64,000 nucleotides of DNA, taken from contig NC_087245.1 in assembly GCF_037042905.1 (NCBI RefSeq), forward strand, positions 16,990,001 to 17,054,000. The letters are read 5' to 3'. The notes beneath the pieces are model-generated. The model searched no databases. It had not been told where the DNA came from and worked only from the letters and a program-made list of their open reading frames with translations. Position numbers and translations under genes: made by a program. The DNA is from Lytechinus pictus. Lineage: Eukaryota. Shown here piece by piece: positions 1,176-46,100 of the stretch; positions within the stretch are counted from its first letter, which is position 1; each line of letters begins with the position of its first letter.

Positions 1176-2367
1176 CCATTGTCATCATGGACCTGGCCAC
1201 GGAGGATTAGCTATTGTTACTGGGGGTGCTGTGACAATGCTCAGCACCCCCAGTAGCAATAGAATAATCCTCCGTGGACAGGGCCCTGATTGTCATGATT
1301 ACTCAAAATAGAAAGAAATACTGAATAGATAAATTAACAAAATACAACGAAATAAGGAAACATGACAATATAATCTATACCATGTATATGAAATACTTTC
1401 AATACCTTCACAAATATAAATTGTAATCTAAAGCATAAAGTAAACTATAGCATGGAAAATGGGGACTGGGTGAATAAACTTGACATCTAAAATAAGAAAA
1501 TGTATCATAGGGCAAATCGCCATTTTCCAAAGTACTAATTTAGTTTCATTATTTTTTCGGTATTAAAGTAATACTCAGTTTCTTTTTGTTTCCTTATAAA
1601 CTCTTGACAGATCAACATTCGGTATACACATATCACTTTTAACTTTACAAGTATTTTGTTATTATATTTATTTGGGTAATTAATTTATCTGATGGGAAAC
1701 CAAAACGTTTTCCGAAATTGGTGACATTAATCTTCTTGATATCCTTATTCATGTTAAAGAAATATGAAAAAAAAAGTCACAAAACAAATGCGTAATTGAT
1801 TCCTGCTGATAATAACATAATGGACAATTTGACGAATCTCTTCATTGAAAAGGCATTTAAGGCTATGGCGTTGTGGATTTCTTTTAAACAAAAAAGAACA
1901 TTATCTTGTGTCAAATGTCCTAGGCATGGCTGAGGCTTTGCATGAAAAGGGAAAATCTTTACTACCACAGGCAGCAAAGTTTTGAATATGCTAAAAAAAA
2001 CATTTGATATGACTTTAGTGAAATTTCTGAAATTCAGCCTATGTACCAGATTTCCAGGGGGGGTGGTACCAACAGTGAATAATACACGCAGCGCTCCCAG
2101 CATCCTCACTTTCCAGGACCATGGTTCAGGATCTCACACTCTCACAAAATTGTGACCCTTCAAGGTGTTCCCCCCTCAAAAAAAAAAAAAATTACAAATA
2201 CAAGAATAAATAAATCAATAAAATGTTTAAATAAATGAATAAATAAATAAACAAATAAATAAATTAATTAATTTTTAAAAAAGATAAATAAATAAAATGA
2301 ATAAATGAATAAATAAATAAAATGTGTTTGTTGCGTCTGGTGGCTCCTGATATCAATATATAATTAC

Positions 2368-23931
<21,564 letters not shown>

Positions 23932-26900: not shown

Positions 26901-29431
26901 TAAAGCCTGTTAAAAGGCTTAATAAATGTTAAATATATCGGTGTACATAAAACTCATATCAGAGTGCAACCAAATAAGGTAAAATATGTATGGGTCTTGT
27001 GATCGTGCAGTCAAGTCCTCTATTAGTGTTACCGTTAAGCTTCACAGCTGTGGAGCACTTCATAATTTATTAAGTACCGTATAAGGTTCACTATATTATA
27101 TGGTATATGTAAAATACATGTACGATGCCATAAATGATATGTATGGAAAGTAGGATCATTAATAAAAAAAAATTCTACAATAATTGTGAGGTAAACAAAC
27201 AAATGACTGTAACAGGATACTGCAACTGGTAACTGTTTTGTGTGCATCATCTCAAATTCAAATTCAATAACTCATTGTTTTTAAGGACGGCAGTATTAGC
27301 ACATAACGTTGGGAGATCAGAGAACTGATCTGTATCAAGGTGATTTGAATAAGCTCTGAATACAGAAACATAAGTACTGTGGAAGGTTCAACATTTGAGA
27401 AATCATATGCCTCTCATAGAAAATTTAATCAATGTATACAAATTTCAAAATATTCAAATTTAAGTATTCAATTTTTCCCCAAGCACTTTAAAAAAATAAT
27501 AAATAAGTAGGCCATTTCTGTCTGGGAGACATCAGAAAAACCTTACTTCTCAATTAGTACTGAAAACGAGACATCTTAGGAACAGGGGGAAATAACGAAC
27601 TGGATTTGTACTGCATTTTGTTTTTGAAGAAAGTACAATGTTAACAGGTAATAATAATAATAACATAGGCAAATTTGTATCTGAACTGACACACTATTGG
27701 CCAAGGACATTGAAAGATTTGATACAACAGCCAATGGGAAGATAAGGCGAATTCCATATACACATATATACTCCTGAGATATCTCCTGATTAAGATTATA
27801 TAACCACATCTAATGAAACCGAACACTTGTCAGCATTTTTTCTTCTTTTCGCAGTATAAGAAAAAAAAAACATGACTGAGATTTGAACTAAAATTGTTTG
27901 ATCACAAGGAATACTATAATCGTACTGTACATAAAATTGCCAAGTATTTCATACTCTAATGGCCAATGCTTTAAATGATCATTGTGTACAATAGTCAAGG
28001 CCTGGGACGAATGTCATTTTTACCATTCAATATTTCCTGAAAAAACAATTGAATGATTCGATTGTTCGTCGGGAATCACGTCTTTTAAGTCATAATAGTT
28101 GACCTACTTTATGGTGACCTCCCGCAGCTGAGTCCCAAGTCCAAAGACGTCTTAGTAAACAACTCATTCATGAAGTATTTTTTTAGACTGACACGCAGGT
28201 GGTGCATTTCACTTCTTGAAAAATTTCATCCTTTGCCCACACCATGTCCCCACCCCCACTTGACATGCATTTCAAAAACATTTTTCATTTGAAATACCTT
28301 TCAAAATTACAAATATTTATCATTTTAACCTACATGTAGAACTGGGTCTATTTTTAGGAGACTAGTCGAGAAAGTACTGGTGATGGTGGCGGGCGCGTGT
28401 TGGAATGTTGTTTTGATTGTGTGAGGGGGGGTATAAAAAAGGTTGCATTGTTTTGAAACATAGAAGGATTTCTCCGGCTCCCACCCCCTATCTTTCTCTC
28501 TCTCTCTCCTTCACACACACACACACAGATGGGGAGGGGTCAATCTATTTCCTGAAAAGGGAACGCATGTGGCTTCTTCTTCATAATCTTCTTTGTTTCC
28601 CAAAAGGTTTCATTGGCTATCAAGGTCCAATAAGCTCAAGTGAGCTACAAGTAGTTGTGGGTTTACTTTCTGTTTTGAGCACGCAGATGACTTATATATT
28701 GTATCGAGGGCAAGGCCGGGTGGAATTAACATTTTCGGAGCTCTTTCAGGTCGTTTAACTGTGAATGTGATACATTCATTGTTCATTTTTGACAAATTAC
28801 CTTGGTAACATCATTTTTAAACCTGTATCAAGTATTAAAAAACCGTTATCATTGTTATTTTGTCATTTTGTTACTATTATTTGGGTATTCGAGTTATCCC
28901 AACGTCATAATCGGGATCTGCCGAACATTCGTGCAGTGCAAATTTTGCTAATTGATTAGCGATCGGCGGCAAGCCATTCGAACCATTCGATCAATCGATG
29001 TTTACTCCCAGTCCTAGTGTACAAGTGTCCGGTTTTAGAAGATTACTAATTTTTTCAAACCCTGTTTAATACACACCGTATTGATAGCCAATAGGCACGC
29101 TAACAATGAAATCCAATATATAGGAAGAGAAGCTGCCCTGGAACGCAAGAAGCCAAACATCTAGGTATTCAAAGAAATGCTCATTGACCTGAAAAATTAA
29201 TCAAAATAAATTTGAAGATAAAAAGAGTATTTCCACGCAATTGACCAAGTTAACACATTTTCTACTGGAACCAGGTTAACCTCAGTACAAAAACATATTA
29301 ACAGCCCTCACATTAACAAGATATTGATAATCAATTAATTAAAGCAATGCATACATTTCTTGCAACATAATTGCAACAGCAAAAAAAAAAAAAATCCTTC
29401 ACACATGGATGGAAACAAATCTGTTGCTCTC

Positions 29432-29533
29432 TTAGCTCAGACATCCAAGGAAGGACATTCAAGCCATCATTAAGACTGAGAAGTCCTTATGGTGGAAACT
29501 GCGAATGATTGGAATAAAATTCATCATAGCCAA
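29432..29533 (-). ncRNA. SNORD14: U14 box C/D snoRNA copy 1 (in a putative 3'-UTR intron of TMEM237)
   Basis: Minus strand reads box C AUGAUGA, domain A CAUUCGCAGUUUC (antisense to 18S GAAACUGCGAAUG), C'-like AUGAUGG, domain B CCUUCCUUGGAUGU (antisense to 18S ACAUCCAAGGAAGG), box D CUGA. Core 29437-29527; terminal stem UUGGC/GCUAA. Confidence 0.92.
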
Positions 29534-29627
29534 CAGAGATCTCGTTTGTAAAGAAAAGTGATATACATTGTATCATTATATGACACAAAAAGTTTGTAAT
29601 AGAAGATTTAAGAAATTGTGATCTCAC

Positions 29628-29674
29628 CTTCATTTATATGTATCTTTCAAGGATCTAAACTGCCATAAATATAT
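29628..29674 (-). other. Predicted 47-nt non-coding 3'-UTR exon of TMEM237 separating U14 copies 2 and 1
   Basis: Minus-strand acceptor ttcatcttctttctgtttacatgtag and donor AAG|gtgaga. Upstream donor CAG|gtaaac at 31153; next acceptor gattaatttttcag before 29188. Confidence 0.55.
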
Positions 29675-30967
29675 CTACATGTAAACAGAAAGAAGATGAA
29701 TTTACAATTAATGAAGGAAAAAAATGGTTAATAGTTGGAGATATTTATCTTCAACTATCTATATATTAAATTTTCACATATTATAATTTCCAAACCTTGA
29801 TCAACCAAGCAGTTACAAAAATGATGGTACAAAGCAGGATTTCTTAATTTTCTTGCTTAAATTTATAGACCTGAAATGTTGTATTCCTGGTGTGTTACCT
29901 GGTGTGCACGCAGCCACTTTGTTCTGTTTTTTGGGTCGCATTTACACTGGAAATTCAATGCCCTCTATGTTCGTTGGTCGCAAAGATACAATATGGCTAC
30001 GCGCACGCATCAGGATTGTAACGTTTTGGAAAGATACATTCAAGTAAGAAAATTGAGAAATCCTGCTTCATAATAATATTCTCATAACAATACTTCGTTG
30101 ACCAGGGTTTAGAAATAATTTTATGTAAAAAATTTCTAGAAATAATTTTATGTGAAAAATGTTATATATTGATCTAGATAAGGAAATAACTTGGATGATA
30201 ATTCATAGTCTTTGGCGACACTGAATTTCGTAATAATCATTTCTTTATTTTAGCGGCACGACAGTCCTGACAAATTTGCATCAGTGACCGCCCTCGTTGT
30301 GCTGGTATCGGTTGACCTCCTGGTTTGACTCAAGCCTATTGCAGAGGTGCATGAAGAAAGCTTTTTCCAATTTAGTGTAAACCAAGCAACATCGTGTAAT
30401 ATGATTCATGAATGACATTAATTTAAAACATTCCATTGCCATGAGCTGTAACTCAAACAACACAACTTGAGACCAGTTTGGTCTACTGAAAGTGTATAAT
30501 GCCAATTTTTCAGCACAAATGAGGAGCTGTCTTTTCATGTCTCCAAGAAGATTGACAAACCCTAAGGCACCTTTAAAAAAACATGCCAGGATCATGTTTT
30601 TCATGAAGGTATCCTACATGTGTCTTTTCATAATGAAAAAGAACTTGTTAAAAAACAATGGGATGTAATCTGTCCCTCAGATAGGATGTTTAATTGAGGC
30701 CCCAGAGTAGAGGAGTGTCACCACCTTTGTAAGTTAAGAACCCACTGCACTATTCGTAGAAGAGTAGGGGAAAACCCCTGTGTAGTGGTCCAACTGCACT
30801 CCCCCAATCAGTTCCCTTGGGATAAGAGACACACGGGCGATTCAGTTAGCTTTTTGTCTCCCAGGCACAGGTGACGCCAAACAAATAATAAGAATGTAAG
30901 AAGGAGCTATGAAAGACCTATTACGGCAAAAAGACATGGGTCTGACTTTTGATAAGGTGCCTTATTC

Positions 30968-31081
30968 AATTTGTCAGCTCAGACATCCAAGGAAGGACAT
31001 TCAAGCCATCATTAAGACTGACAAGTCCTTATGGTGGAAACTGCGAATGATTGGAATAAAATTCATCATAGCTGACAAATT
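30968..31081 (-). ncRNA. SNORD14: U14 box C/D snoRNA copy 2 (intron starting 3 nt after the TMEM237 stop codon)
   Basis: Same 91-nt core (30979-31069) with one hairpin-loop substitution; 11-bp terminal stem AAUUUGUCAGC/GCUGACAAAUU. Confidence 0.93.
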
Positions 31082-31155
31082 ACCACTATCGTAAACATAT
31101 CCTGTAATTCATTCTAGGTGTATTTTTAAAAGGCCACTAAAAGAGGGTTTACCTG

Positions 31156-34100
31156 TCATGCTTGTGATGTCACATTCCCTAGTTCTGTGTCTTGTTGTTC
31201 TTCCCATAAAGGTACATCTGCATCGTGTAAATGATCTGGGGGTAGATAAAATTATTTATGTATACCTCTTCATATTCAGAACACGGCTACTCACATTTCC
31301 TCTTGTTTGTCTAACACAAGAATACAGATTTTGTCATTAATTTTTTCATCAATCTAATACTTCATATCTTGTATTTCATCTCACCTAATCATTTCACAAT
31401 TCATGTTTTCATAGACAATTTATTTAATCATGTAAAAGCTTTAATCAATCTGTTCATTTATACATTTATCATGTATTCAATAATTCATCTTTATCAATTT
31501 ACCTTATTATCTGTTAATCTTTGACCACATGCACTTATATATAAATTTTTCAATATTTAAGTTTTCATCATCATCATCATTGTTATTATTATCATATTTT
31601 AATTTTTTCTGGAGGGCTGTTCAGATGCGCAAAAGCCAATCTCAAGCATACCTGAAGTATAATCTGTTGTTGGTGTAATAGCTATGATAGTCCAACCCAG
31701 GATGGCACCAATAGCCCGTATCAGGTTGATAATACGCCAGATGTTCAGTCTCGAGGTAGCTTCATCATCATCCCAAAGACTACCATCCTCTGGGCAATTA
31801 GGTTCACTAAAACACAATGAAAATGCAAATGAATGTCTTTCGATATCCACCAAATAAAACAGGAACTTATTATCTGTACCAACGTCTAAAACATGTTCAT
31901 TTGGGGATTGTGCCTTTTAGTCAGCAGCACCTGTACTGTGGAATAAATTGCCTAATCATCTGAGGGCCATCACTTGTACTTCCACCTTTTTCAAATCGTT
32001 TGTATAGGAAAGGTATGTTACAATGTTAGTTTATTAATTTTCCATCTAGAATTTGTTTGTTCTTTTAATTCTTAGTATACTGGTATTAGATTAAATTACT
32101 TTTATGTAAAGCGCATAGACATCCTGTTGAATATTATGCACTATATAAGCATCCAATATTATTATTATGCCACCTAGGCTTACTTTATTAATCAATGAGC
32201 AATGTCTCATTTGCTACAAGAAGTATTTGGACATTATTTTTAATACATTTAGGATGATTTCCATACCTGAAATGAAATGGATATTGTATCTGACTATAAA
32301 TTCTGAGGTAAATTTAAACATATCTTAAACCTTCTTACAATTATTTACTGAATGACCTATGCACACAAGTTAATTAGAGAGTCTAGTTACATCCATGCTT
32401 GAGCTATGTCCAATCTATTGCAAGAAGCCATTAAGTTCTGTGCTAACGATCAAACACAGCCACAATGAAACAAATGAAGACATTTTGTCCATTAGAGTAA
32501 CAGGGAATTGTTGCACATATTGCTACCACCAAAATGTATTAATATCTTGCCGTATAAAAAATAATAATTATGAAATCATATTAATTTGGGCTCAGACATC
32601 CAAGGAAGGACATTCAAGCCATCATTAAGACTGAGAAGTCCTTATGGTGGAAACTGCGAATGATTGGAATAAAATTCATCATTGCCCAAGTCCAAAAAGA
32701 GCTGCCATTGTTTCTTCTTTAATTGCTTTAATCAGAATACACAATAAAACCATATACAGTGGTGCTCAAAAGTTAGTGAACCCCACCAGACAAACAAACA
32801 CATTTGAAGTGTTCAAGTTCTGCCATGTTTTAAATATTTCATTGTGAAATCAGGTAATAAAATATTACCTACAATAAAGTTCATTTCTCTGGGCTCGCCA
32901 AACATTGTAGTGTTGTTGTCTACATTCAACACTCAGCGTGAAGGAGTGCATTTTGTGGTGGGGTTCAATAACTTTTGAGCACAACCCTAACTCTAGTGCA
33001 TGAAAAATAACTAAAATATTTTAAAGAGAGAATTGGCAAATTCATTCTACTTCTTGGGAAGAATGTCTCTGGGAATAACTTACCAATATGGAGGATCAGA
33101 CTTCAAAAATAGGCTTATCCTGTCGTCTATTGCAGCTATGCTTGTTGAGAATATCAACGAAATTAAATAAACTGTGAAAGAAAGTGACGAGAAGATTTGT
33201 TCACCCATTTCATACTGGAACTTGGTGATATCTATACATAATCAATGCGAATAATTAACTCAACATTGAGTTAATCATTTCGGATTGTATCATTTGGAAT
33301 AGGAAATTTGTTTTAATAGACACACAACATGAGCTCAGACATCCAAGGAAGGACATTCAAGCCATCATTAAGACTGAGAAGTCCTTATGGTGGAAACTGC
33401 GAATGAATGGAATAAAATTCATCATGGCTCATTCCTTGCGATATTATGTGCAAAACAAATACATTAGGCAATACAATCAAATACAGTGTAGATGAAAAAC
33501 ATTTTTACACAGCCATTAAACATCACATGTTGAAAGAGGTATGCTCTTAGCATTTCATTGTTCCACAAAATGGTTTAAGAGAGAGCATTCCAAGAAAAAT
33601 TTTGCCTGTGATTTTCACTGACTAATTTGCTCTCAGCCAACCAGATGCAAGGATTTGCAGTAACTAAAAACAGTATTCAGTGATATCACTATTTTTTTTC
33701 AGGAAATGCTCCCCAAGGAGCTTAATACTAAGGAGTGTTATGTATGGGTATATGTCTGACAGGTATATATGACAAGTCATACAGATTTCTCAGCCATTAT
33801 ACTTTGCATCGGCTGAAGCAAGAAAGAGGCAGATCTTCAGAATTATTTAAATGAGACGATTTTCTGCCAAAAAATGAATGAAATTAATCATTTTTGTCAA
33901 AAAAATGAATATATCTTTCAGTTATTTTCCACTTGTTTCTAAGGTAACATGGATGAAGCCACCTACTTTGGTAACAACAATGTCTTATTTTACCCAGGGT
34001 AGCCACTTCAGTTCTGAAGACTGTTCTCCCAGCGGGCCCTGCAAAGAGCAATGTTTTCATGGCTTTTTGTGGGGAACCCTCCTTTGCTAGGAAAAACAAT

Positions 34101-37100
34101 CAAGATTTTTAATGCTTACCTAGAATAGAAATGGCTCCAGACTGGAATGTGAGGAGACCTCTAAAAAACTGTCTGTCTGGTCTTGCTATATCAAATCTAC
34201 AATAATAAATCATTTCAAAGATTATATCACCAAAGATGCGACAACAGCGTACAGATATTGACAATAATACAGTTGGCAGTCAAAATATTGTACTTTAAGA
34301 CAGAAAGTAATCACAATAATTTCCTTGGTTTTAGCTCCAACTGTCTTTATGAGCGCTACAGATTATAAAAGGAATGAATCATGAGCACCTTTTCATTTTT
34401 TACTTCCTCAGGGTCATATGTACCACAATGTGGATATGTATAATGGCTACCATTCCAAACCATGCCCCTCTGATTGTTGAAATACATTGCTTTCACATTG
34501 GTAGTTTTTGTCCTTTACTCCTATGTGGTATTAATACAAGGTTTTATCTCTGTGAATTAAGAGAGAAATGTTTCATATGGAACAGTCAGCTCAGACATCC
34601 AAGGAAGGACATTCAAGCCATCATTAAGACTGAGAAGTCCTTATGGTGGAAACTGCGAATGATTGGAATAAAATTCATCATAGCTGACAGATGGACTCCA
34701 ATAACGATGACATAGTAACATGTACATGGGTTAAGGTATCCTGTAAAGTAAATGCGAATTTACACTTAGCCCATCTTTGAAAGTAATGTTGGTTTGATTG
34801 TTTAGAACAACCTAATACCAATTAATGTAGACATTCATGTTTGCATAAATTACAACAGCTATCTTACATAAAAACAATTGTAATTATCATTATTCTGTTT
34901 TAATATGTACACTTGTTAATTTTCAGTCATTGATAATTTGTACAATATTATTGACAATCAATCTAAGGATCTTTCCATCTATATAAATAATCATGATAGA
35001 AATTTACATCTGATTACAAACATGTGTTTCGCAACATATCCCTAAAATGGACGTTGTAAAAAAATGTAACCTCTAGATCTGTCTCACCTATCAAACACAG
35101 ACACTGTACAGAGGGCAAGCAAGAAGTAGTAAACTGAGGAAGCGGGTTGAGCTAATCTGCTGTATTGTTCTAAGAACTGTGTCTGACCATCCTTCCCAGA
35201 ACCTTGTAATTCTGAAGCTAATACGAAGACCACTACGCACTGCCACAATGAATACCCAGCTAACACTCCGTGGCATAGGAGTGTGAATGTGAGGAACTTA
35301 CGATGGGTAGACTGCAAAGGAAACCAAAAAAATTTGTTAATAACAGACAAATTAGCAACAAATGAATGTCTTATCGGTATAGGTTTGTGTTAACACCAAG
35401 TAGTAGTTCTGAAAAGCAATGTTCATTATTTTTCTTTCTTTGATTGCTAGCTCTGGAAAAAAAAAATCCTGGTGACAACGAGATGACAAACCCGTTGAAA
35501 CGATCAAAGAATTATTTTCAGAGTTAACAATCAGTCAAGAAAGATTACCAGCAGTCCTCTTCAGGGACCTGTTTAACTGTTTCCATAGCAGATGTGCAAT
35601 AACAGTTTAAAGCTACTCAAATCATTCAATTTGATTGGCTGATGGTAAACTTGCTATAGAAATAGTGCATTTATGAAATATGACCCATGACTAAGGTAGG
35701 GGTGACACCACAAATTTACATTTTTCAATTTTTCCACTATGAAAATATTCCTAGATCATCTACACTAATACTTCATAATTCCAGCTGATAAGTTTAATTT
35801 CTATAAACCCCTTTGGTATTTTGTCAATATGTTCTACTTTAAAATAAAGTTACATATTGTGACCACATACTGAACAATATAACATTAAAAAAAGGCCTAT
35901 TCTTTAACTGTATGTATATTTCAAAACTTTGTAAGTGAATATGAGCTCAGACATCCAAGGAAGGACATTCAAGCCATCATTAAGACTGAGAAGTCCTTAT
36001 GGTGGAAACTGCGAATGATTGGAATAAAATTCATCATGGCTCATCTCACATGTCCATGTACAGGTTCAACCCAAACCATCCATCCTTTCATAACATAGAA
36101 CACAAACTATATCAATTGCATGAATATGACTGATTTCATAGACAGGAATAATATACAGCTACAAGTCTCTAAAATGACCATAAAAAATCTATTGGTAAGC
36201 ATATCTTGAGCCCATGCGCTGATAAGTTGGTCATCTTTCTAAACGAAAGACCATTTTACACTATTCTTTATTTTCCAACCACAAGAATCTTACCAATGCA
36301 CACTGAGTTGTAGTAAATTTGATTTCTTCCGGTGCCTCTTGCTGCAATCTTCTCTCGCGATCTCTCCTTTTGATCAAACGCTTCTTGTCTTCGCTTGCAA
36401 AACCACCTTAAATAATAAAATGCATAAATTTATTATAATATGAAACAATTAACTAAATAGAAATAGAATAAAGATGTCACACTGGTGTTAGCTTCTCAAT
36501 ATTTTCTTTTTTTCTTTCCACTTGGTGTTATATCTGTTATACCCATTCATTCAATAGCCTCACTAGATACTATCACATATGAAACCATATAGTCAGCTCA
36601 GACATCCAAGGAAGGACATTCAAGCCATCATTAAGACTAAGTAGTCCTTATGGTGGAAACTGCGAATGATTGGAATAAAATTCATCATAGCTGACATGAA
36701 TTTTAAATACAAGACATAGAATAAAACACAAGACATATGCTATGGGGCAAAATGTGCCTAGGCACCTCAAAAATTTGCCGGATAATAATCGTTAGTTGGC
36801 GATTATTCTTTTAAAGAGATTTTCTAAAAGAGATAAGCAATATTTACATGTATTACTAATGAAACTGGATGATCCTATGGCCCATTGTCTAAAGATACAA
36901 TGCCCAGTCCTACATACAGAATAATTCCATTTAGTAAAGAGTGTGCAAAGCATAGGTAAAGACAAGTCTATACAAACATTCTGTGTAATGACGTATTGCG
37001 CAATGGGAGCAAAAGTTAGATTACAGTTCAGGTAAATCACAGGATTAGTAGAATGTCCACAGACATGGCACACATATCAAACACATCCTGTTCATTAGGG

Positions 37101-40100
37101 CAACCAACTTTTAAATCATAATGTTTTTGTATTCTACTATTCCTGAAGTCAAGGACTTAGCAAATTTTTAAGGTTGTTAAAAGTAATAACCAATGTAGTC
37201 TAACAAAACAAGGAAGCAATTCTGGAATGCATCTCTCAATATTAGAAAATTGTCATTGTTATATGAGTAAATATATGGAGTTACCTTCTATTGAAGTGCC
37301 TATGGCCGTATTCTGCAATCAGGTTTAATTTAAACTCTGGTCTAAAGTTGTGGTATGGATAGACAATTGTGACATAAATCTCAAACAGTAGAGATTTAAT
37401 TTATTAGCCCATTTTACTCTCAAATCATTCTTAACTGTCTACGGAGGGTAAATAGCATACATGTACTTGCCTTCACCATTAAAGAATCAGGAAAGAGCAC
37501 AGTAAACATAAGATCATACAATGCCAACAATATTTTTAAATTTTTGGCTTCCCATAATTTTAATACAGGGTTAGACCATGGTCAAAGTTAAACCTGTCTT
37601 CAGAATACGGGCCTATATTTCAGAAATTATAGGCTATGTGACTTTCAGAGTTGCTTCCTTTTGTCATGGGACAGCTGTATGGGAAAGAGGTCTACATTAT
37701 AAGTGGGATGCATGGCTCCAGGCTGTTTTGAGCTGAACAAACCTTTCCTTTCCATAAAGAGTTTATTGACTGGTTGACTTGGAAGCACAGCGACTTGAGA
37801 GGCCGGTGGTTGACGGGCTGTCTCTACTTGAACCTCTCCGGTTACTACATCATCAGCTGAAAATAACAAGTCTGACAACAGAAAGGAAAAAAAAAATTAA
37901 GATTAAAAAAAAAAATGATTAAAAACAGTCAGTTTTTCTATCAAAACCAAAATGCTGGTATTCTGAATCTTGAAAAGATTTATTCGATAATAAAATATCA
38001 AGTGAAAAGAATAACAAACTGCCTGTTTGTGAAATACCCTACCATAGAGGTCATTAGGTCAAGCTTGATTTCATTTTCATTTTAATAACATTAACACTAA
38101 TACCTGCAAACAATGGTTCAATGTTAGGCAATAGTGCAAGACCCCTAAAATATGAACAGAAATGCATGTTTCTAAGCTATATAATTATTTCTAATAATGT
38201 TAATTCATGAATTGTAAAATTGTCCACATCCTCTCTCAAGTGTGTCAAAGGTCAGCTCAGACATCCAAGGAAGGACATTCAAGCCATCATTAAGACTGAG
38301 AAGTCCTTATGGTGGAAACTGCGAATGATTGGAATAAAATTCATCATAGCTGACACCTATCCTGTATATGAGACTAAATGCATCACGTACATTCATTAAT
38401 ATGATGTAATTCACACACGCATAGCTACTATACGTTATATGTTGAAAGCAGATGTTAGCGATACTAACAAAAAATATGAATTCATATATGTGATGCAATA
38501 AATCACATCATACACACCTTCACCATCAGCATGATAGTTCTCATCACCAGACGTAATCGGTCTGTCAGAATTGATAGAAAACAAGGCGAAAATAAAAATG
38601 GACAATAATTACTATTTTACAAATATCTTGATGAATGAAAGTGAATGCAAGATCTATGTACCATGGAAATTAATCTTATTCAATAATCAATTAACTCATT
38701 TGTAAAAATGGTCTAGATATCTATGGTCAGCTCAGACATCCAAGGAAGGACATTCAAGCCATCATTAAGACTGAGAAGTCCTTATGGTGGAAACTGCGAA
38801 TGATTGGAATAAAATTCATCATAGCTGAAAGATCAGACCAACTACCATTTTTAACAGAAAGGAATCCTAACAATGCATCATTTTTCTTATTGATATCAAG
38901 TCTAAAAAGGCGAGACCAGAGGTAAAAGAAGAGAAATCAAGAAACAGGCAACGAGCCACATTTTAAACATTACTTGTATGTGCATGCTCAACCAAATTCC
39001 ATTGTACTATTCTGCGCTTTCAGGAACTTCCACATCCTTAAACATAAAGTCCCTATTATTAATGATACATCTAAGGTAATTAATTCATTTTTTATTTTAT
39101 AAAAAGTTATCAATACCCCTTTGAAATATTAATCATGGTCCACTACAAGATAAAAGTATGTACTGAATGTCCAATAAATGGATATTTCTTATAAACCTCA
39201 AATCATTTCATTTTGATAAAGAAACTAACTTGGCTTTCTTCTTCTTGGTTTTAGCTTTGCCTGTTGGAGGTCGGTTCTGAGGTGTTTTGGCGCTCTCTTC
39301 TTCACCATCAGCACTGTCATCTGAAATAAGAAATACATGAAATTCTCTGATAATCTTGGTCTTCATGTAACTTGTCTAAGTTTGTAACTATAAATATTGT
39401 TTGTATGGAATTTGTGGGACATGCATAACACCAGATGGGGCACAAATCAGTGCATGATTAAAAATAAAAGTATGACTTAAACAATTAATCAATCACTGAA
39501 CATTAATGTAAGTCATTGCACTTTTCTGATTAAGAAATGTAATTATTGACTTAGAAAAAAAACCTCTACACAGGCTTTAAAACTGCTGTCAACTCAGACA
39601 TCCAAGGAAGGACATTCAAGCCATCATTAAGACTGAAAAGTCCTTATGGTGGAAACTGCGAATGATTGGAATAAAATTCATCATAGCTGACAAACATGAT
39701 TTGTATTGGATAATCGTGATGAGGGGGAAAAAAATACGATTGGCAACTCTGCAATAGCAAATGTTGACAAAGAATAGAACTTTCATACATGTCTTGAACT
39801 TAGCTCAGCAATGGATACTCTTCATAAAATTGAAGATTTTTAATCAATGAGTGATGCACAAGCATTGAATAATATGGTTACCTGGTATAAACTTTGATCT
39901 TGGTCTCTTTGCTTTCTGTTTTGCATTGCCGTTGGATTCTGTTGCTATTTCATCACTCACAGATCGAGGGATGTGGGATTTTCTACCTTCTAACAAACAT
40001 AATAAAAAAGGAAACAAACGCATTCATGAAATATGCCATGTCAAAATAATTTTTTTCTCACATTTCTTTTCCTGGGTAAGGATGAAAGCATGCCAAAGAG

Positions 40101-43100
40101 TGGGTTTTATCTACTCTCTAATAAATATTAGCCATATAATGGCACGAGGCCTAAGAATTGCCTGCAAGCTACGTGAATACAAACTGTAATGCTTCAATTC
40201 AACTCCTCCCACCATCCTAAATGAAATTTGTGATTGCCGCCTGACCCACCGCTTGCTATGTAATTAAACAATGAGTCAACACTCCTTTCTGTAGTCACAA
40301 CTCGGCTAAAAAATAACTTGAGGTTTTTATGATACTTGGTGTACAAAAGATAGAAATTTTTTTTTTCATAAATTGCTGCATAACGATGCTAATTTCATCA
40401 ATTCCAGAAAAAAATGTGGACACATGCCATGACCCCTATGGGTCATTCCATGTCAAATCATCAAAGAATCTGCCGTCATCTCTCAGATTTTTGTAAAACT
40501 TTGGGAACCAATTGGGACTCCTGAAAAATGGCTAGAACTCATATATTTTCGCTAACAGCCTCTAAATTAGTGAGATACAGGCTAACGAACTTTGAACTAA
40601 TTAGCATGACTTCGTGAATTCAAATGGCCATATCTCTAAAAGTATAAAACCTAGAGAGCTGGTTTTGATTTAAGAGATGACGGCAGATTCTTTGATGATT
40701 TGACATGGAGTGACCCCTACCTCTTTTCCTCCTCGCAGCACCTGGGGAAGCTTTCAGGTTCTCAATTGCTGGAGCTTGGCCCGATATATCGCCTTCATCA
40801 GCTGCAAGAATAAGAGCAGAAACAAAAAACAAAAATTGAGAAAAAATTTGGTTAAATGATAGTTCAAATGTTAGAAATAAAAACATCCAACCAACAGGGA
40901 AGCCTTTCATCAAGCAACTAACCATCATTTAACTGCAAATCAGATGCAAAGATTTCAGTAGCATACAAAAAGTTATTTCACCCAAAAAATGCTTCATGAC
41001 ACAGTACACCCTAAACATTAAAAAAAGTTCTCAAAAATTAACCCTAACTAGGCCGGGCTTTTTTGGCTGTTCTGTGGCCGGGGGGGGGGGGGGGGTGATT
41101 CAACCCCCCCTGAGATCTCGGCCGCCGATCACGCGAGCGCCGCAAAAATTTGCACGCTGGTAGTTTGCGATGTAATCTACAAGGCTGTATGGTAAAATTT
41201 TCCAAAATATTGAGATTTTTTTTTATATGAATTAATTATGCTAATTTATGCATAAATCATACTTTTTGCTCTAATTCACTAAATAAAGCTCCTAGAATGC
41301 TAATTTTTGGTAAAAATATTCTTTGTAGCATTCTTAACAATCGCAATTGGAAAAAACTTCGGTTTGGAAATCAATTTCTGATGTATTTTATTGTTTTATG
41401 AATTTCTTATGTATTTCTTTGTTTTTCAACCTTTTGTTTTGTTCACCAGATTTATTGCACAACCTTTTTGAAGCATAATTATGCTAAAATCAATTGATTT
41501 CAGCTTTTAAAAGTAAAAATAATCATATCTTTATGAATAAGATGAGAAAACTCAATTTGCATTGACTTTGTACACAAAATCACGTTTTGGAACAATAATC
41601 GGTCTGACATGCACTTACGAAATGTTGCGTAGTTTCGGAACCGCGTACCGGGCGTCGTAAATTTGGTCTCAAAAGATGCGCGAGACTTAAAAGTATAAAC
41701 TCTGCGAGTGGCGCGGTCAAAACATTTTGCGCGGCGGAATGATCGCAGAAAATGTTGAGGGGGGGGGTTGATTCAACCCCCCCCGGCCATTTTAGGGTTA
41801 AGCAGTGACAAAGAAGAGATAAGCATGAATTTAAACCAGTTCCCTGCCCCCTCAAACCCACTTATATGAATTTAGCTTCTACGAAAAGCCCACTACTGAT
41901 TGAAGTCAGCTCAGACATCCAAGGAAGGACATTCAAGCCATCATTAAGACTGAGAAGTCCTTATGGTGGAAACTGCGAATGATTGGAATAAAATTCATCA
42001 TAGCCAACTTTTCCCCAAAACCCTGCACTACTACCTGAGCAGATCACAGATAACTAACCCATCCATTTGATTTGTTGCGTAGCATATCGAAGAAGAAATT
42101 TTAGAAATAAACAAAATTTATTTAGATAATCCAACAAATTTTAGTTGCTCAAGTCTCCTCAAATCACTCTTATTTTATTTCACTAAACAGGTTATAGAAG
42201 GCCTACATGTACACCCTCTTCTCTTATTCTCAATAAAGCCTCCCACAGATGGGGATTTCAACAAAGTCCCTATTAACCAATTACATGTACATATGGTTGA
42301 TATGGAAACACATTGCACTTTACCATTGCCATCTGGTGCATCCGGTGGTTTACGCTTCTTTTTCTTCCTCTTGCTTCCATTCCCTACATTTGCTATGTCT
42401 TCAGTACTGGCTGTTGTAGTATGACCTCTGACTTCTGTGCTCTCTGACACAGTACCTCTCAGCTTACTCACATTGGAAAGCTGGGAGTCACTAGCATCTA
42501 CTCCTACAGATAAAAAGTGGTAATGTTCTTGAATATGTTCCTTTCTTTGGGTGAATAATATGGCAGGAGTATTATTGACAGCAAAATAATTTTCATTCCA
42601 ACAACATGTAACACTCTACACTGCAAAAAGCAGGCACAAAATTTGCTCCTGCGACAGTTGCTCTGACCTTTATTTTGTCAAAGATATACGGTTACGGCTT
42701 GGTCCCACTGCACTTACGGATGCAGAGAGGATGTAAAACACAAAAGAATCTTGCCATCCGTTGGAAAACGTTATGTATCTGTTGTGTACTCTTTGCATAC
42801 GTGTTTCATACGCTTTATATCCATCGAAAATCCGTCTACTGTGATTTCATTGTTCACACATTTTGTCTATTGTCTGGAGCGGATGAAAATGGAGCCAACC
42901 CGAAATTTTGCTTGTCCGCTGTATCCATTATGAATACGTTTTGTGTCCTTCTGTCAGTGGGATCAGGCCTTCAGGGGATAGGGCTTCACGTTGGGTTAAT
43001 CTATTAGTGTGCAGAATTTATAGCAGAGAAAATGTCATAGAAGCAAAAATCATAACTTTTCATTTTGATGTTATAAACCCATTATTCTTTAGACTTAGCT

Positions 43101-46100
43101 ACCACTTCTTGTCACTGACTTCAGAGTTTTGAACGTACAATTTAGCCAACCTTTTATTAAAAAAATAATTCCACTCACCTTCTCCATTTTTCTTTTTCTT
43201 TTTAGTCTTCTTAGGTGATGCTGTTTCTGTTGGAAAAGAAAGACAGAACTGAATGATCAAACTTTGATAATCAAAGTCTATTAAAAAAAAAATCCAGTTT
43301 GATTTGAATTCGTTTTTATATACATTTTCTGGTAACTGATACAGTTTATATACTGCCCAAACATTAATTTTCTTTAAATAAGAAAAGTCACCTACCTGCT
43401 TCGCTTGTATTCAATGGTGGCAGGCTCCTTCGTTTTGTTGGAGTATCCTAAACATGAAAATGTATAGTATGAAAATGAAATAGTATAGTATGAAAATGGA
43501 ATAGTAGATTGCGAGACAAATGAATACCCTCTAGCCAGGGTTGGCACGTTTTAAACGGTGTGTTTTAAAACATGTTTTAAAACGCGTTTTAAAACACCCG
43601 TTTTTTTTACAAAAAAAACGTGTTTTAAAACACCTCATAGACTTGTGTGTTATAAATATGCATGGTCATGGATGTGATTTTAGATGAATATTTTTTTAGA
43701 CTTTTATTTCTTAAGTGGTATATTATTTTCTTCTAACTAGATCTCTTTCTCAACACCACTCTTTCTCTTTCCCCCTTATCCCCCTCTCTCCATCCCTTTG
43801 TCATGTTCCTTGAAATCCTCTTGTTCAATTGTGCACATCAATCTATATTAAGAATATTTTCATTATAACAAACATGAGTGTTGTGCTTTAAAATAAGCTC
43901 AAATACGGACCTTGAATGAAATGGAAGTGTTGCACAAGCATAATATTTTACAAATAGACTGTAAAACTGACATTGTATTCTTGAGGTACACACAAAAGCA
44001 GGTGTAACTTTGCGCTTCGTAAATATGAAGAAAAGTACTTAAATTCAGTATAAGATAGTCAGCAAGCAAACCTTAAAAGACAAGTCCACCCCAAGAAAAA
44101 TGTATGCTGAAAATTTCGTCAAAATCAGATGCAAAATAATAAAGTTTTGCTTAAGTTTTCAAAACAGTTATATGCCCATCTTGGTCGGTATGCAAATGAA
44201 GGGGACTGATGACATCACTCACTATTTATTTTGTATTTCGTTATTTTCTTATTGTCATGTGAAATAAAGTTTAATTCTTCCCTGAACATATGGAACTACC
44301 ATTGTTTTAACATTTTTTGGTTCAGTCAAGTAGGTCATCTGAAAAAATTGAAATTGTATTGTTCAAACAATAAAATAAAAGAAATAGTGAGTGAGGGACA
44401 TCATCAACTCTCTCATTTGCATATCACTGAGATGTTATTACTGTTTTGTGAATAAAAGCAAAACTTTACAATGTCATACATGTAACTTATTTTATATCTG
44501 ATTTGACGAAACTTTCAGCATTACATACATGTATGCTTGTTTGAATTTTCTCTACAGATTGAAATCAACATTTTTCTGGGGTGGACTTGACCTTTAACCC
44601 TAACAATCCAAGGGGACCGTAATGGCCCCCTAAAATTTCTCTGATAAATCCATAAGCACGACAGGGCCATGCCATATTGTTCAAGACTATTTTTGGGATG
44701 CATGCATGGGTATGGGATTATGATATTACACAAGTGCATGTCAGACCCCAAATTGCTCAATAACGTGATTTCATGTATAAAGCCAATGCGAATTTTTCGC
44801 CAACATTCGTATCTGTATCAATATTTATACAATTGGAAAAATATTTCCAATAATTTCCATTACAAAACGATTGAAAAAAACCAAAACTAACCAAAAAACT
44901 GTACAAATATTTAAATTTTTTAATTCCTCAAAATTAAATTATTCAATTCCTCAATTAAAAAAAATTAGCAGTTCAGGGGGTTTATTTATCAATTTAAACC
45001 CAAACTTGTATTTCATGCACTAAAATGTGTAAAATTGATTAAAATCAAATTAAAAGGATGGTCCGGGCTGAAAATATATCTTAATACATAGAGTAGAATT
45101 CACTGAGCAAAATGTTGAAAAATTTCATCAAATTCAGATAACAAATAAGAAAGTTATTGGAGTTTAAAGTTTAGCAACATTTTTTTTAAAACAGTCGTCA
45201 TGAATATTCATTAGGTGGGCTAATGATGTCACATCCCCACTTTCCTTTTTCTTATGTTATTACATAAAGTCATATTTTTTTCATTATTTCATACTTGTGT
45301 GAATAATATGTCTCCCTTATAATGAAATAAGTTGCAGCAATGAATATCTAATGCACTATATCAGTTGTCAATCCAATTTTTCTAGTTCTTGGAGGAAAAA
45401 AATTGAATAAACCTAATTTGATATGATAAAATACAAAAGAACAAGTGGGGATGTGACATCATCAGCCCACCTAATGAATATTCATGATGACTGTGTTCAC
45501 AAAATATTGCTAAACTTTGAAATTCGATAACTTTGTTTTTGCTATCAGATTTTGATGAAATTTTTCGGCATTTTGCTCAGTGAATTCTACTCTATTTATT
45601 AAGCTATAAATATTTTCAGCCCGGACCATCCATTTCAGCTTTGAAAGCTCATAGTCTATAGATTATGTCATTTTCTTACATTGTGCGAATTCTTCTCACC
45701 CCCTAGATTGACGAGACCCAAAAGTATGTACATATATGTAAATGTATAAGGAATAAACTTATAAAATGTCAACTTACTTGTTTGCATTCAATTTCAATGA
45801 TTTAGTAATTTGGGGGAAAATATGAACTTTTCTATTGGAAATTCAGTAACAAAAAATGTAGTTATCTCTTACTTACTCTAAAAATGAATTTAAAACATCA
45901 ACAGCTTAAATTGTACTGTATTAAGTGTATAGTTTAATTTATTTACAGAAAATTTCATCGTTCGTTGGAAAAAAAACGTTTTAAAACGATTTAAAACGTT
46001 TTAAAACAATAAAAAACGTTTTATTTGTTTTTTTTAATAAAAAACGTTTTTTATTACAACCCTGCCTCTAGCGATTATTTCAGTCCGCAATAATGAACCT

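What the first reader, a model, noticed from the sequence alone, without database searches (positions are those of the whole stretch)
29432..42010. Eleven-copy U14 snoRNA array, one per intron, hosted by the ciliary gene TMEM237
Seen: a 91-nt unit recurs 11 times, always sense to TMEM237. Nine copies sit singly in coding introns 4 and 6-13; two lie after the stop codon. Each has box C (AUGAUGA), box D (CUGA) and two 18S-antisense blocks, CAUUCGCAGUUUC and CCUUCCUUGGAUGU. Established: these are U14 domain A (needed for 18S pre-rRNA processing) and domain B (guides the 2'-O-methyl C equivalent to human 18S Cm462 / yeast Cm414). The +5 rule from box D lands on the C of ACAUC. Vertebrate U14 is hosted in a few copies in hsc70/HSPA8 and RPS13 introns. 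Inference: here a transition-zone gene has become a high-dosage source of U14, tying ribosome biogenesis to TMEM237 transcription. I know of no description of this host or copy number.
Basis: partly seen in the sequence, partly recalled or inferred. Interest (0 to 1): 0.9.

Follow-up and report, generated by a model that had tools for sequence, protein, structure and literature searches.

The report
Eleven U14 snoRNA genes inside TMEM237
A sea urchin's only TMEM237 (cilium) gene carries eleven intact copies of the essential ribosome-making guide RNA U14, each in its own spliced intron, an unusual host and copy number for a well-known kind of gene arrangement.

Summary
Rfam's SNORD14 model finds 11 full-length hits (74.8-80.2 bits, cut-off 64), all on the minus strand, at the stated places.

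- **Host gene.** It is the genome's single TMEM237 gene: 15 coding exons, 493 of 495 residues identical to a Lytechinus TMEM237 protein.
- **Position of the copies.** Nine copies lie singly in coding introns 4 and 6-13. The two copies after the stop codon also lie singly, in two canonical 3'UTR introns. Public RNA data show one of these spliced in raw reads and both in a contig.
- **Rest of the genome.** There is only one other U14 copy, in an intron of dyskerin (DKC1). The RPS13 locus has none, and no HSP70-family match lies at a U14 place.
- **Signs of selection.** Similarity stops at the terminal stems. The stems carry compensatory changes and copy-specific extensions, and both guide blocks pair with the animal's own 18S rRNA.

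Mature U14 RNA and its dosage were not measured. Same-strand U14 clusters of 2-4 copies are common in other eukaryotic contigs, so this is a new variant of a known kind. Interest is moderate.

The parts
41907..42006 (-). U14 copy in TMEM237 coding intron 4 (317 nt after the 5' splice site, 1105 nt before the 3' splice site)
   Evidence: RF00016, 74.8 bits. Intron map; joint 40801/42324 seen in RNA reads. Uninterrupted terminal stem of 8 bp.
39590..39689 (-). U14 copy in coding intron 6 (192 / 269 nt from the 5' / 3' splice sites)
   Evidence: RF00016, 77.0 bits. (joint 39320/39882). Terminal stem 8 bp.
38728..38827 (-). U14 copy in coding intron 7 (402 / 166 nt)
   Evidence: RF00016, 78.5 bits. 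(joint 38561/39230).
38253..38352 (-). U14 copy in coding intron 8 (165 / 381 nt)
   Evidence: RF00016, 78.5 bits. Intron (GT-AG). Its joint is not among the rows shown (25 rows were not shown).
36594..36693 (-). U14 copy in coding intron 9 (1049 / 187 nt), used here as the reference copy. RNA positions: box C 6-12, domain A 26-38, hairpin 46-61, C'-like UGAUGG 64-69, domain B 79-92, box D 93-96.
   Evidence: RF00016, 77.8 bits. Pairing with own 18S. Joint 36406/37743.
35943..36042 (-). U14 copy in coding intron 10 (251 / 631 nt); terminal stem variant AUGAGC/GCUCAU
   Evidence: RF00016, 76.9 bits..
34587..34686 (-). U14 copy in coding intron 11 (401 / 390 nt)
   Evidence: RF00016, 78.5 bits. 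(joint 34196/35088).
33331..33430 (-). U14 copy in coding intron 12 (689 / 159 nt); terminal stem variant AUGAGC/GCUCAU
   Evidence: RF00016, 76.7 bits. (joint 33171/34120).
32588..32687 (-). U14 copy in coding intron 13 (396 / 781 nt); terminal stem variant UUGGGC/GCCCAA, shared with the DKC1 copy
   Evidence: RF00016, 79.0 bits. (joint 31806/33084).
30975..31074 (-). U14 copy in the first 3'UTR intron (31152..29675); 78 nt after the donor, 1300 nt before the acceptor; 12-bp uninterrupted external stem
   Evidence: RF00016, 80.2 bits. Joint 29674/31153 in one contig of run X1, 0 raw reads in X11-X13. Raw-read depth 0 in bin 29804-30437. GT..AG read. Stem.
29433..29532 (-). U14 copy in the second 3'UTR intron (29627..29189); 95 / 244 nt from the splice sites
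   Evidence: RF00016, 77.4 bits. Joint supported by 8, 16 and 13 raw reads in X11-X13 and by a contig of X1. GT..AG read.
31153..54606 (-). TMEM237 coding region in 15 exons: 54606-54589, 43447-43396, 43226-43179, 42503-42324, 40801-40721, 39989-39882, 39320-39230, 38561-38518, 37871-37743, 36406-36294, 35311-35088, 34196-34120, 33171-33084, 31806-31652, 31235-31153. The stop codon TGA is at 31158-31156.
   Evidence: Pfam PF15383 on 4 of 16 ORFs tested, best E 1.1e-23. P0001 (495 aa) maps with 2 mismatches and 14 GT-AG introns. 12 of the 13 coding introns inside the laid stretch appear as joints in the shown rows. It is the only TMEM237 locus in the genome.
29628..29674 (-). 47-nt non-coding exon that separates the two 3'UTR introns, so that each U14 has an intron of its own
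   Evidence: Joints; splice sites read (..tgtag|ATAT...GAAG|gtgaga).
27000..29188 (-). Last 3'UTR exon. The 3' end is approximate, placed where depth fades at about 26.7-27.0 kb.
   Evidence: Acceptor ..ttttcag|GTCAATG at 29188. Depth table and X1 contig piece 27002-27588.

Best explanation
The window holds the single TMEM237 gene of a Lytechinus-type sea urchin. The gene doubles as a multi-copy host for the box C/D snoRNA U14.

Proposed mechanism: each of 11 introns (coding introns 4 and 6-13, plus two 3'UTR introns) carries one sense-oriented U14 gene. RNA polymerase II transcribes the gene and the introns are spliced out. Each U14 is then most likely released by debranching and exonucleolytic trimming up to the snoRNP that forms on the box C/D kink-turn, which the terminal stem holds together. 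One pre-mRNA can thus yield up to 11 U14 molecules.

Mature U14 would pair through domain A with 18S nt 81-93 (the role in 18S processing). Through domain B it would pair with 18S nt 416-429, putting C420 at the fifth position from box D for 2'-O-methylation.

The copies lie 159-1300 nt from their 3' splice sites, not at the preferred spot known from human introns. Assembly probably relies on the terminal or external stems (5-12 bp, built partly from each copy's own flanks) rather than on closeness to the branch point.

Shown here: family identity, intron position, splicing of the host, pairing with the animal's own 18S, and the selection signature.

Inferred, not shown: release of mature RNA from each copy, methylation of C420, and how much of the cell's U14 comes from TMEM237 rather than from the single copy in DKC1.
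For: - Identity: 11 of 11 units pass the Rfam SNORD14 gathering score over the full model.
- Pairing with own 18S: 14 Watson-Crick pairs between U14 nt 79-92 and 18S 416-429, directly before box D, so the fifth position pairs with C420. There are 13 pairs (one G-U) between U14 nt 26-38 and 18S 81-93.
- Host and splicing: 15-exon TMEM237 model with GT-AG throughout. RNA joints match it, with reads only in the first_mate_on+ column, which fits RNA from the minus strand if the libraries follow the usual stranded convention. Two extra 3'UTR introns each enclose one U14.
- Selection: across 12 copies the similarity ends sharply at the terminal stems and the flanks are unalignable. 93 of 108 columns are invariant.
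- Terminal stem: 97.2% of cells are paired, and 3 of 6 pairs show changes on both sides. The covariation score of 0.255 was reached by 0 of 500 shuffles, and slid controls score at most 0.053.
- External stems: each copy's own flanks pair better than mismatched flanks, mean -12.6 against -8.1 kcal/mol. Only 2 of 20000 derangements reach the observed mean.
- Arrangement: one per intron and all sense, far from random.
- Genome-wide: only 12 U14 copies, 11 here and 1 in a DKC1 intron.
[quoted passage not shown] Long external stems can make box C/D assembly independent of splicing (PMC5519232, passage).
Against: - No direct sight of mature U14. The three raw-read libraries (151-nt paired reads, rRNA-depleted) give depth 0-0.2 in bin 34242-34875, which holds one copy, and only 5-9 reads fit two places of the stretch. 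Expression of the small RNA is therefore untested.
- The first 3'UTR intron rests on one contig of a run whose RNA nature is a guess. Raw reads show 0 joints there, though they also show zero depth inside that intron.
- Intron 8's joint is not in the rows shown.
- None of the copies is near the position preferred by human box C/D snoRNAs, about 50 nt upstream of the branch point (PMC5519232). That might lower the yield.
- TMEM237 junctions carry only about 7-44 reads per 8.3-8.7 million records read, so the host is not highly expressed in those samples.
- Conservation in other echinoderms could not be tested.
Confidence: 0.8

Rival explanations
1. Passenger copies. Only the DKC1 copy supplies functional U14. 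The 11 TMEM237 copies would be neutral or decaying duplicates (snoRNA pseudogenes or retrocopies) that happen to lie in introns.
For: Mature RNA from these copies was not seen. In vertebrates only about a third of annotated snoRNA copies are expressed (PMC10234308 abstract). DKC1 is a ribosome-biogenesis-type host like classic snoRNA hosts. The positions are far from the 3' splice site.
Against: All 11 copies keep both boxes and both guide blocks without a single change, while their flanks are unalignable. The stems carry compensatory changes and copy-specific extensions. No poly(A) tails are visible at the 3' flanks in the alignment. The strict one-per-intron, all-sense layout is not expected of neutral insertions. 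No degenerate relics turn up at E <= 1 in 27-56 kb.
Confidence: 0.1
2. Young array kept uniform by gene conversion. The near-identity of the copies (96-100%) would reflect recent intragenic spread or ongoing homogenisation, not long purifying selection on each copy. The array could then be lineage-specific and short-lived.
For: Copies are 96-100% identical over 100 nt. Non-adjacent copies share stem variants: introns 10 and 12, and intron 13 with DKC1 on another contig. This shows exchange or recent copying between places.
Against: Similarity ends within about 3 nt of the stem in every pair, which would need very short and precise conversion tracts. At least four different stem variants persist. 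This rival concerns history, not function, and is compatible with the best explanation.
Confidence: 0.25
3. Separate host transcript. The U14 copies would be served by an overlapping non-coding snoRNA host gene or an alternative non-productive isoform, not by the TMEM237 mRNA precursor itself.
For: The 3' part looks like a non-coding host: a 47-nt spacer exon and two snoRNA introns after the stop. The last junction lies 50 nt past the stop codon, at the edge of the recalled 50-55-nt rule for nonsense-mediated decay.
Against: Every joint shown around the nine coding-intron copies joins the coding exons exactly as in the protein model. One X1 contig runs through exons 9-11 (table 8), and the X1 joints carry only two depth values (125.4 and 121.1). 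No alternative exons were seen in the shown rows, though 25 joints were not shown.
Confidence: 0.07

Closest known systems
Vertebrate U14 (SNORD14) in introns of hsc70/HSPA8 (three copies) and RPS13
   Same: Same RNA family (RF00016). It is intron-encoded, sense, one per intron, several copies in one protein-coding host, and processed from the pre-mRNA. Source: PMC7277114, passages read. The RPS13 part is recalled.
   Different: The host is a ciliary transition-zone membrane protein gene, not a chaperone or ribosomal-protein gene. There are 11 copies instead of 2-3, and two of them use 3'UTR introns. This genome's RPS13 locus has no U14, and no HSP70-family match lies at a U14 place.
Homotypic intronic box C/D arrays SNORD116/SNORD115 in SNHG14 (mouse Snhg14: 204 C/D copies)
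   Same: Many near-identical copies of one box C/D snoRNA, each in its own intron of one transcription unit. Source: PMC10234308 passage. The details for SNORD115/116 are recalled.
   Different: Those arrays are tandem duplications of whole exon-intron units in a non-coding, imprinted host, and the snoRNAs are orphans. Here the flanks are unrelated, the exons encode a conserved protein, and the snoRNA is an essential rRNA-processing guide.
Multi-snoRNA host genes such as GAS5/UHG
   Same: One snoRNA per intron over about 10 introns. Short spacer exons. The host is subject to nonsense-mediated decay (PMC10234308 passage). The 47-nt 3'UTR exon here resembles such spacer exons.
   Different: GAS5 carries different snoRNAs and no conserved reading frame. 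Here one snoRNA is repeated inside a coding gene.
Same-strand U14 clusters in unnamed eukaryotic contigs of metagenomes
   Same: 34 of 129 loci held 2-4 U14 cores, always on one strand, spaced 294-2430 nt apart. One pair lies between exons of an HCO3- transporter-like gene (L055), and another lies downstream of a Tudor-domain exon (L080). U14 multiplicity and non-ribosomal hosts therefore occur elsewhere.
   Different: None of the 129 loci shows TMEM237 or DKC1 exons (tblastn at E <= 1e-4). None holds more than 4 copies, though the contigs are short. The organisms are unknown, and whether the copies are intronic was not tested.
Plant polycistronic U14 clusters and the yeast snR190-U14 dicistron (recalled, not checked here)
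   Same: U14 often occurs in clustered, co-transcribed form.
   Different: Those are released from polycistronic precursors by endonuclease cleavage, not one per spliced intron of a coding gene.

Membership tests
U14 / SNORD14 (Rfam RF00016) | Score at or above the family's gathering threshold over the full covariance model | tested here: met
   11 of 11 window copies at 74.8-80.2 bits against 64, model positions 1-111. The DKC1 copy scores 80.1 bits.
U14 / SNORD14 (Rfam RF00016) | Box C (RUGAUGA) near the 5' end and box D (CUGA) near the 3' end, closed by a terminal stem | tested here: met
   Both boxes are invariant in 12 of 12 copies. The 6-bp stem has 97.2% of cells paired and 3 pairs with compensatory changes.
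U14 / SNORD14 (Rfam RF00016) | Domain A: about 13-nt complementarity to the 5' part of 18S rRNA | tested here: met
   U14 nt 26-38 pairs with own 18S nt 81-93: 13 pairs, one of them G-U.
U14 / SNORD14 (Rfam RF00016) | Domain B: guide directly upstream of box D that places a conserved 18S cytidine at the fifth position | tested here: met
   U14 nt 79-92 forms 14 Watson-Crick pairs with own 18S 416-429. The fifth nucleotide from box D (G88) pairs with C420.
U14 / SNORD14 (Rfam RF00016) | Accumulates as a discrete fibrillarin-associated RNA of about 90-100 nt, and is needed for 18S processing and methylation | not testable with these tools
   The RNA libraries laid do not capture RNAs of this size. 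No small-RNA data or functional assay was available.
Intron-encoded animal box C/D snoRNA (splicing-dependent type) | Lies in the sense strand of a spliced intron, one snoRNA per intron | tested here: met
   11 copies in 11 introns. Joints appear in raw reads for 9 of these 11 introns. Intron 8's joint is not in the shown rows, and 3'UTR intron 1 is seen in a contig only.
Intron-encoded animal box C/D snoRNA (splicing-dependent type) | Preferred position about 50 nt upstream of the branch point (roughly 70-80 nt from the 3' splice site), as in human | tested here: not met
   Distances to the 3' splice site are 159-1300 nt for the 11 copies (for the UTR introns). This is a preference described for human snoRNAs (PMC5519232), not a strict requirement. 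External stems of 5-12 bp are present.
Classic snoRNA host gene class (translation or ribosome-biogenesis genes, 5'TOP) | Host encodes a translation-related product or has a TOP-type start | tested here: inconclusive
   The host is TMEM237 (Pfam PF15383), which is not translation-related. The transcription start site is unknown, because the laid stretch ended at 45000 and exon 1 is at 54606, so TOP status is untested. The 12th copy does sit in a ribosome-biogenesis gene, DKC1.

The most novel reading that the evidence does not exclude
In this sea-urchin lineage most of the cell's supply of an essential 18S-processing snoRNA has moved into a cilium gene. On this reading TMEM237 transcription, not a ribosome-biogenesis gene, sets U14 dosage. 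The gene has been remodelled for that job in three ways: U14 spread from intron to intron until nearly every mid-sized intron holds one; a snoRNA-host-like tail of a 47-nt spacer exon and two extra introns was added behind the stop codon; and the last junction was placed at the threshold for nonsense-mediated decay, so that mRNA output and snoRNA output can be uncoupled. If so, ribosome production in the heavily ciliated embryo would be wired to the ciliogenesis programme.
Probability: 0.2. Interest if true: 0.65.

Novelty: new variant of a known kind. Interest (0 to 1): 0.45.

Why it matters
U14 is one of the few snoRNAs needed for making 18S rRNA, and it was the first snoRNA shown to be intron-encoded.

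Here 11 of the 12 U14 genes of a genome sit in one gene with no link to translation. Each copy shows signs of selection: perfect guides, compensatory stems and private external stems.

- **Host switching and intragenic spread.** This is a clean natural case for asking how snoRNAs change hosts and spread from intron to intron, since the copied unit ends within a few bases of the stem.
- **Copy number versus host expression.** It lets one ask whether many copies make up for a modestly expressed host.
- **Processing far from the branch point.** It lets one ask whether box C/D snoRNAs placed there rely on external stems.
- **Annotation and knock-down design.** A TMEM237 knock-down or promoter edit in this model animal could disturb ribosome biogenesis as well as cilia.

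It does not overturn any principle. Host turnover and multi-copy snoRNAs are well known.

Tried and rejected
- **Run index.** No RNA holder was listed by the look-up of sequencing runs. Three raw-read RNA runs of the same species label and one contig run were laid instead.
- **Mature U14.** It is not visible in those libraries (depth about 0 over U14-bearing intron bins). This says nothing about expression.
- **Other RNA families.** A relaxed Rfam scan of 27000-56000 (E <= 1) gave no other snoRNA and no U14 relics. It gave two miRNA-family matches far below their cut-offs (41.8 of 230 bits and 36.8 of 245 bits), rejected as chance.
- **17-mer search.** The reverse complement of an extended domain A found only the 12 U14 copies themselves, not rDNA. 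The real 18S pairing is 13 nt with one G-U.
- **RPS13.** The 10-kb locus has no Rfam match at E <= 0.1.
- **HSP70.** The 44 matches lie on contigs C8, C15, C11, C3, C12 and C5, not at the U14 places. I did not decide which of them is the hsc70 orthologue.
- **Metagenome contigs.** tblastn with 5 TMEM237 and 7 DKC1 proteins found nothing at E <= 1e-4 in 129 loci. I gave Pfam 150 of the 208 ORFs (55 aa or longer, U14 strand) from 15 multi-copy loci. ORFs of L060, L081 and L028, and part of those of L055, L059, L083 and L048, were left out. Only L055 (HCO3- transporter, 2 ORFs) and L080 (Tudor, 1 ORF) gave hits.
- **Earlier findings of this scan.** Five look-ups gave nothing relevant.
- **Promoter.** The sequence upstream of exon 1 was read, but without a start site no TOP call was made.
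- **Paper supplements.** None was consulted.

Full report
**1. The observation**

A scan of the whole 64-kb window against Rfam at gathering thresholds returns 11 matches and nothing else. All 11 are to SNORD14 (RF00016), all lie on the minus strand, and all cover model positions 1-111. They score 74.8-80.2 bits against a cut-off of 64, with E-values from 7.7e-16 to 2.2e-14.

An independent repeat search of 27-45 kb finds a single direct-repeat family with 11 members at the same places, spaced 475-2317 nt apart.

With the terminal stem the conserved block is about 104 nt.

**2. Not a dispersed repeat**

The window is C1:16,990,001-17,054,000 of an 811.7-Mb assembly. Three searches of that genome agree on 12 copies:
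- The covariance model gives 12 matches, with 106 of 23394 first-look candidates scored.
- BLAST with one copy gives 12 of 12 candidates at 96-100% identity.
- An exact two-block pattern gives 12 on the reverse strand, 0 on the forward strand and 0 for the reversed-pattern control.

Eleven copies are in the window. The twelfth is at C16:13,286,085-13,286,184.

**3. The host gene**

Four of 16 minus-strand ORFs tested hit Pfam TMEM237 (PF15383), in colinear order along the profile; the best E-value is 1.1e-23. A search with one exon returns a 495-aa protein named 'TMEM237-like isoform X1 [Lytechinus variegatus]' (P0001).

Mapping that protein gives 15 coding exons between 54606 and 31156, with 14 GT-AG introns and 2 residue differences in 495. 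Pfam TMEM237 matches nowhere else in the genome.

The U14 copies fall singly in coding introns 4, 6, 7, 8, 9, 10, 11, 12 and 13. Introns 1 (11.1 kb), 2, 3, 5 and 14 have none.

**4. RNA evidence**

Three stranded, rRNA-depleted raw-read runs of the same species label and one contig run were laid on 26000-45000.
- The shown joints reproduce 12 of the 13 coding introns in that stretch. Intron 10 is shown with a 3-base alignment ambiguity. Intron 8 is not among the shown rows, and 25 rows were not shown.
- Junctions carry 2-44 reads per run, all in the first_mate_on+ column and none in the other. That fits RNA from the minus strand if these libraries follow the convention the tool describes for most stranded libraries.
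- Two further introns lie behind the stop codon (TGA at 31158-31156).
  - The first, 31152..29675, encloses the U14 copy at 31074-30975. It is seen in one contig of X1 and in 0 raw reads, but raw-read depth is 0 in bin 29804-30437.
  - The second, 29627..29189, encloses the copy at 29532-29433. It is supported by 8, 16 and 13 raw reads and by an X1 contig.
- Both have canonical sites: CAG|GTAAAC...TGTAG|A and AAG|GTGAGA...TTTTCAG|G.
- The exon between them is 47 nt long. The last junction therefore lies 50 nt past the stop codon.

All 11 copies are thus intronic, one per intron. Random placement by intron length gave that outcome in 100 of 2,000,000 trials, or 4724 of 2,000,000 without intron 1. 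All-sense orientation has probability 4.9e-4.

The libraries do not show the mature RNA. The bin with the intron-11 copy has depth 0-0.2, and only 5-9 reads fit two places of the stretch. This is uninformative for an RNA of about 95 nt in 151-nt paired libraries.

**5. Anatomy and selection**

Aligned with 50-60 nt of flank (200-nt stretches), the 12 copies are nearly identical from stem to stem and unalignable outside it. With 4-nt flanks, 93 of 108 columns are invariant.

Variation is confined to three places:
- the 4-nt loop of a small hairpin;
- one base in the intron-12 copy;
- the terminal stem.

The terminal stem occurs in several variants:
- GUCAGC/GCUGAC in introns 8, 9 and 11 and in 3'UTR intron 1. 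Introns 6 and 7 each differ from it by one base;
- AUGAGC/GCUCAU in introns 10 and 12;
- UUGGGC/GCCCAA in intron 13 and in DKC1;
- wobble variants in intron 4 and in the second 3'UTR intron.

On the 6-bp stem, 97.2% of cells are paired and 3 pairs change on both sides. The covariation score of 0.255 was reached by 0 of 500 shuffles and is at most 0.053 when partners are slid.

Each copy's own flanks also extend the stem. Uninterrupted stems measure 5-12 bp. Own-flank duplexes average -12.6 kcal/mol against -8.1 for mismatched pairs, and 2 of 20000 derangements reach the observed mean.

**6. Targets**

The genome's own 18S rRNA was fetched through Rfam SSU.
- U14 nt 79-92 form 14 Watson-Crick pairs with 18S 416-429, directly upstream of box D. 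The fifth guide nucleotide therefore pairs with C420, the C of ACAUC.
- U14 nt 26-38 pair with 18S 81-93: 13 pairs, one of them G-U.

The equivalence to human Cm462 and yeast Cm414 is recalled, not tested. U14's roles in 18S processing and methylation are taken from passages of PMC7277114.

**7. The twelfth copy and the classic hosts**

Around the C16 copy, the minus-strand ORFs carry the DKCLD, TruB_N, TruB_C_2 and PUA domains. A 565-aa DKC1-like protein (P0009) maps there. That U14 lies in sense orientation in the intron between the PUA exon and the next exon.

P0009 is labelled Lytechinus pictus, and its contig length equals that of C16. The genome is therefore a Lytechinus, probably that species.

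The RPS13 locus has no Rfam match at E <= 0.1 within 10 kb. The 44 HSP70-family matches lie on other contigs than the U14 copies. In this animal the vertebrate hosts are not used.

**8. Mechanism**

Shown:
- family membership;
- sense, one-per-intron placement in a spliced and expressed host;
- pairing with the animal's own 18S;
- a selection signature on boxes, guides and stems.

Inferred: each spliced intron is debranched and trimmed to a U14 snoRNP, giving up to 11 per transcript.

The copies lie 159-1300 nt from their 3' splice sites. The preferred human location is about 50 nt upstream of the branch point. The same passage of PMC5519232 says long external stems can make assembly independent of splicing. 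The private external stems seen here fit that route.

[quoted passage not shown] All three are met here.

How much U14 comes from TMEM237 and how much from DKC1 is unknown.

**9. Context and novelty**

Eight full-text searches found no paper on U14 in echinoderms or on snoRNAs in TMEM237. Passages checked in PMC3247247, PMC8580430 and PMC12309372 do not mention it. Automatic genome annotation may already label these loci, but I could not check that.

- 34 of them hold 2-4 cores, always on one strand.
- None shows TMEM237 or DKC1 exons.
- One pair lies within an HCO3- transporter-like gene, and another lies near a Tudor exon (150 of 208 ORFs tested).

Clustered U14 copies and non-ribosomal hosts therefore occur elsewhere. 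What stands out here is the combination of 11 copies, a conserved coding gene for a cilium protein, and the recruitment of 3'UTR introns.

**10. Verdict**

There are three additions: the 3'UTR introns, the DKC1 copy and the external stems. One claim is left open, namely dosage and the coupling to TMEM237 transcription.

This is a new variant of a known kind, of moderate interest.

Noticed in passing
G000 C16:13,285,367-13,286,393 (L014:86-185 for the snoRNA): The genome's only U14 copy outside the window lies in sense orientation in a DKC1 (dyskerin) intron. It shares its terminal-stem variant (UUGGGC/GCCCAA) and three further upstream bases with the TMEM237 intron-13 copy, which suggests copying between the two genes.
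   Followed up: partly
window 29628-29674 and 31153-31158: A 47-nt non-coding exon splits the 3'UTR into two snoRNA introns. The last exon junction lies 50 nt past the stop codon, at the edge of the recalled 50-55-nt rule for nonsense-mediated decay.
   Followed up: partly
window 40582-41849, 32340-32973, 33608-34241, 37412-38045 and 44386-45000: These intron stretches have high RNA depth on both strands, many variant letters and many loose read ends. They are probably dispersed repeats or transposon fragments expressed from elsewhere in the genome.
   Followed up: no
window about 2356-15223, minus strand: Exons of a subtilase (Peptidase_S8) and CUB-domain gene lie downstream of TMEM237 on the same strand. 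One database protein (P0002, 739 aa) fuses Peptidase_S8, Inhibitor_I9 and TMEM237 domains. It is probably a read-through gene-model artefact.
   Followed up: no
window 58953-59186, plus strand: An EF-hand exon lies upstream of TMEM237 on the opposite strand, possibly from a divergently transcribed neighbour.
   Followed up: no
L055:2817-6225 (metagenome contig, unnamed eukaryote): Two same-strand U14 cores lie between two exons of an HCO3- transporter-like gene (Pfam profile positions 416-451 and 464-525). This is another example of U14 in a gene that is not ribosome-related.
   Followed up: partly
own 18S rRNA, nt 90 (L019): The domain A target reads GAAACUGCGGAUG in this genome's 18S, so its pairing with U14 includes one G-U wobble.
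   Followed up: no
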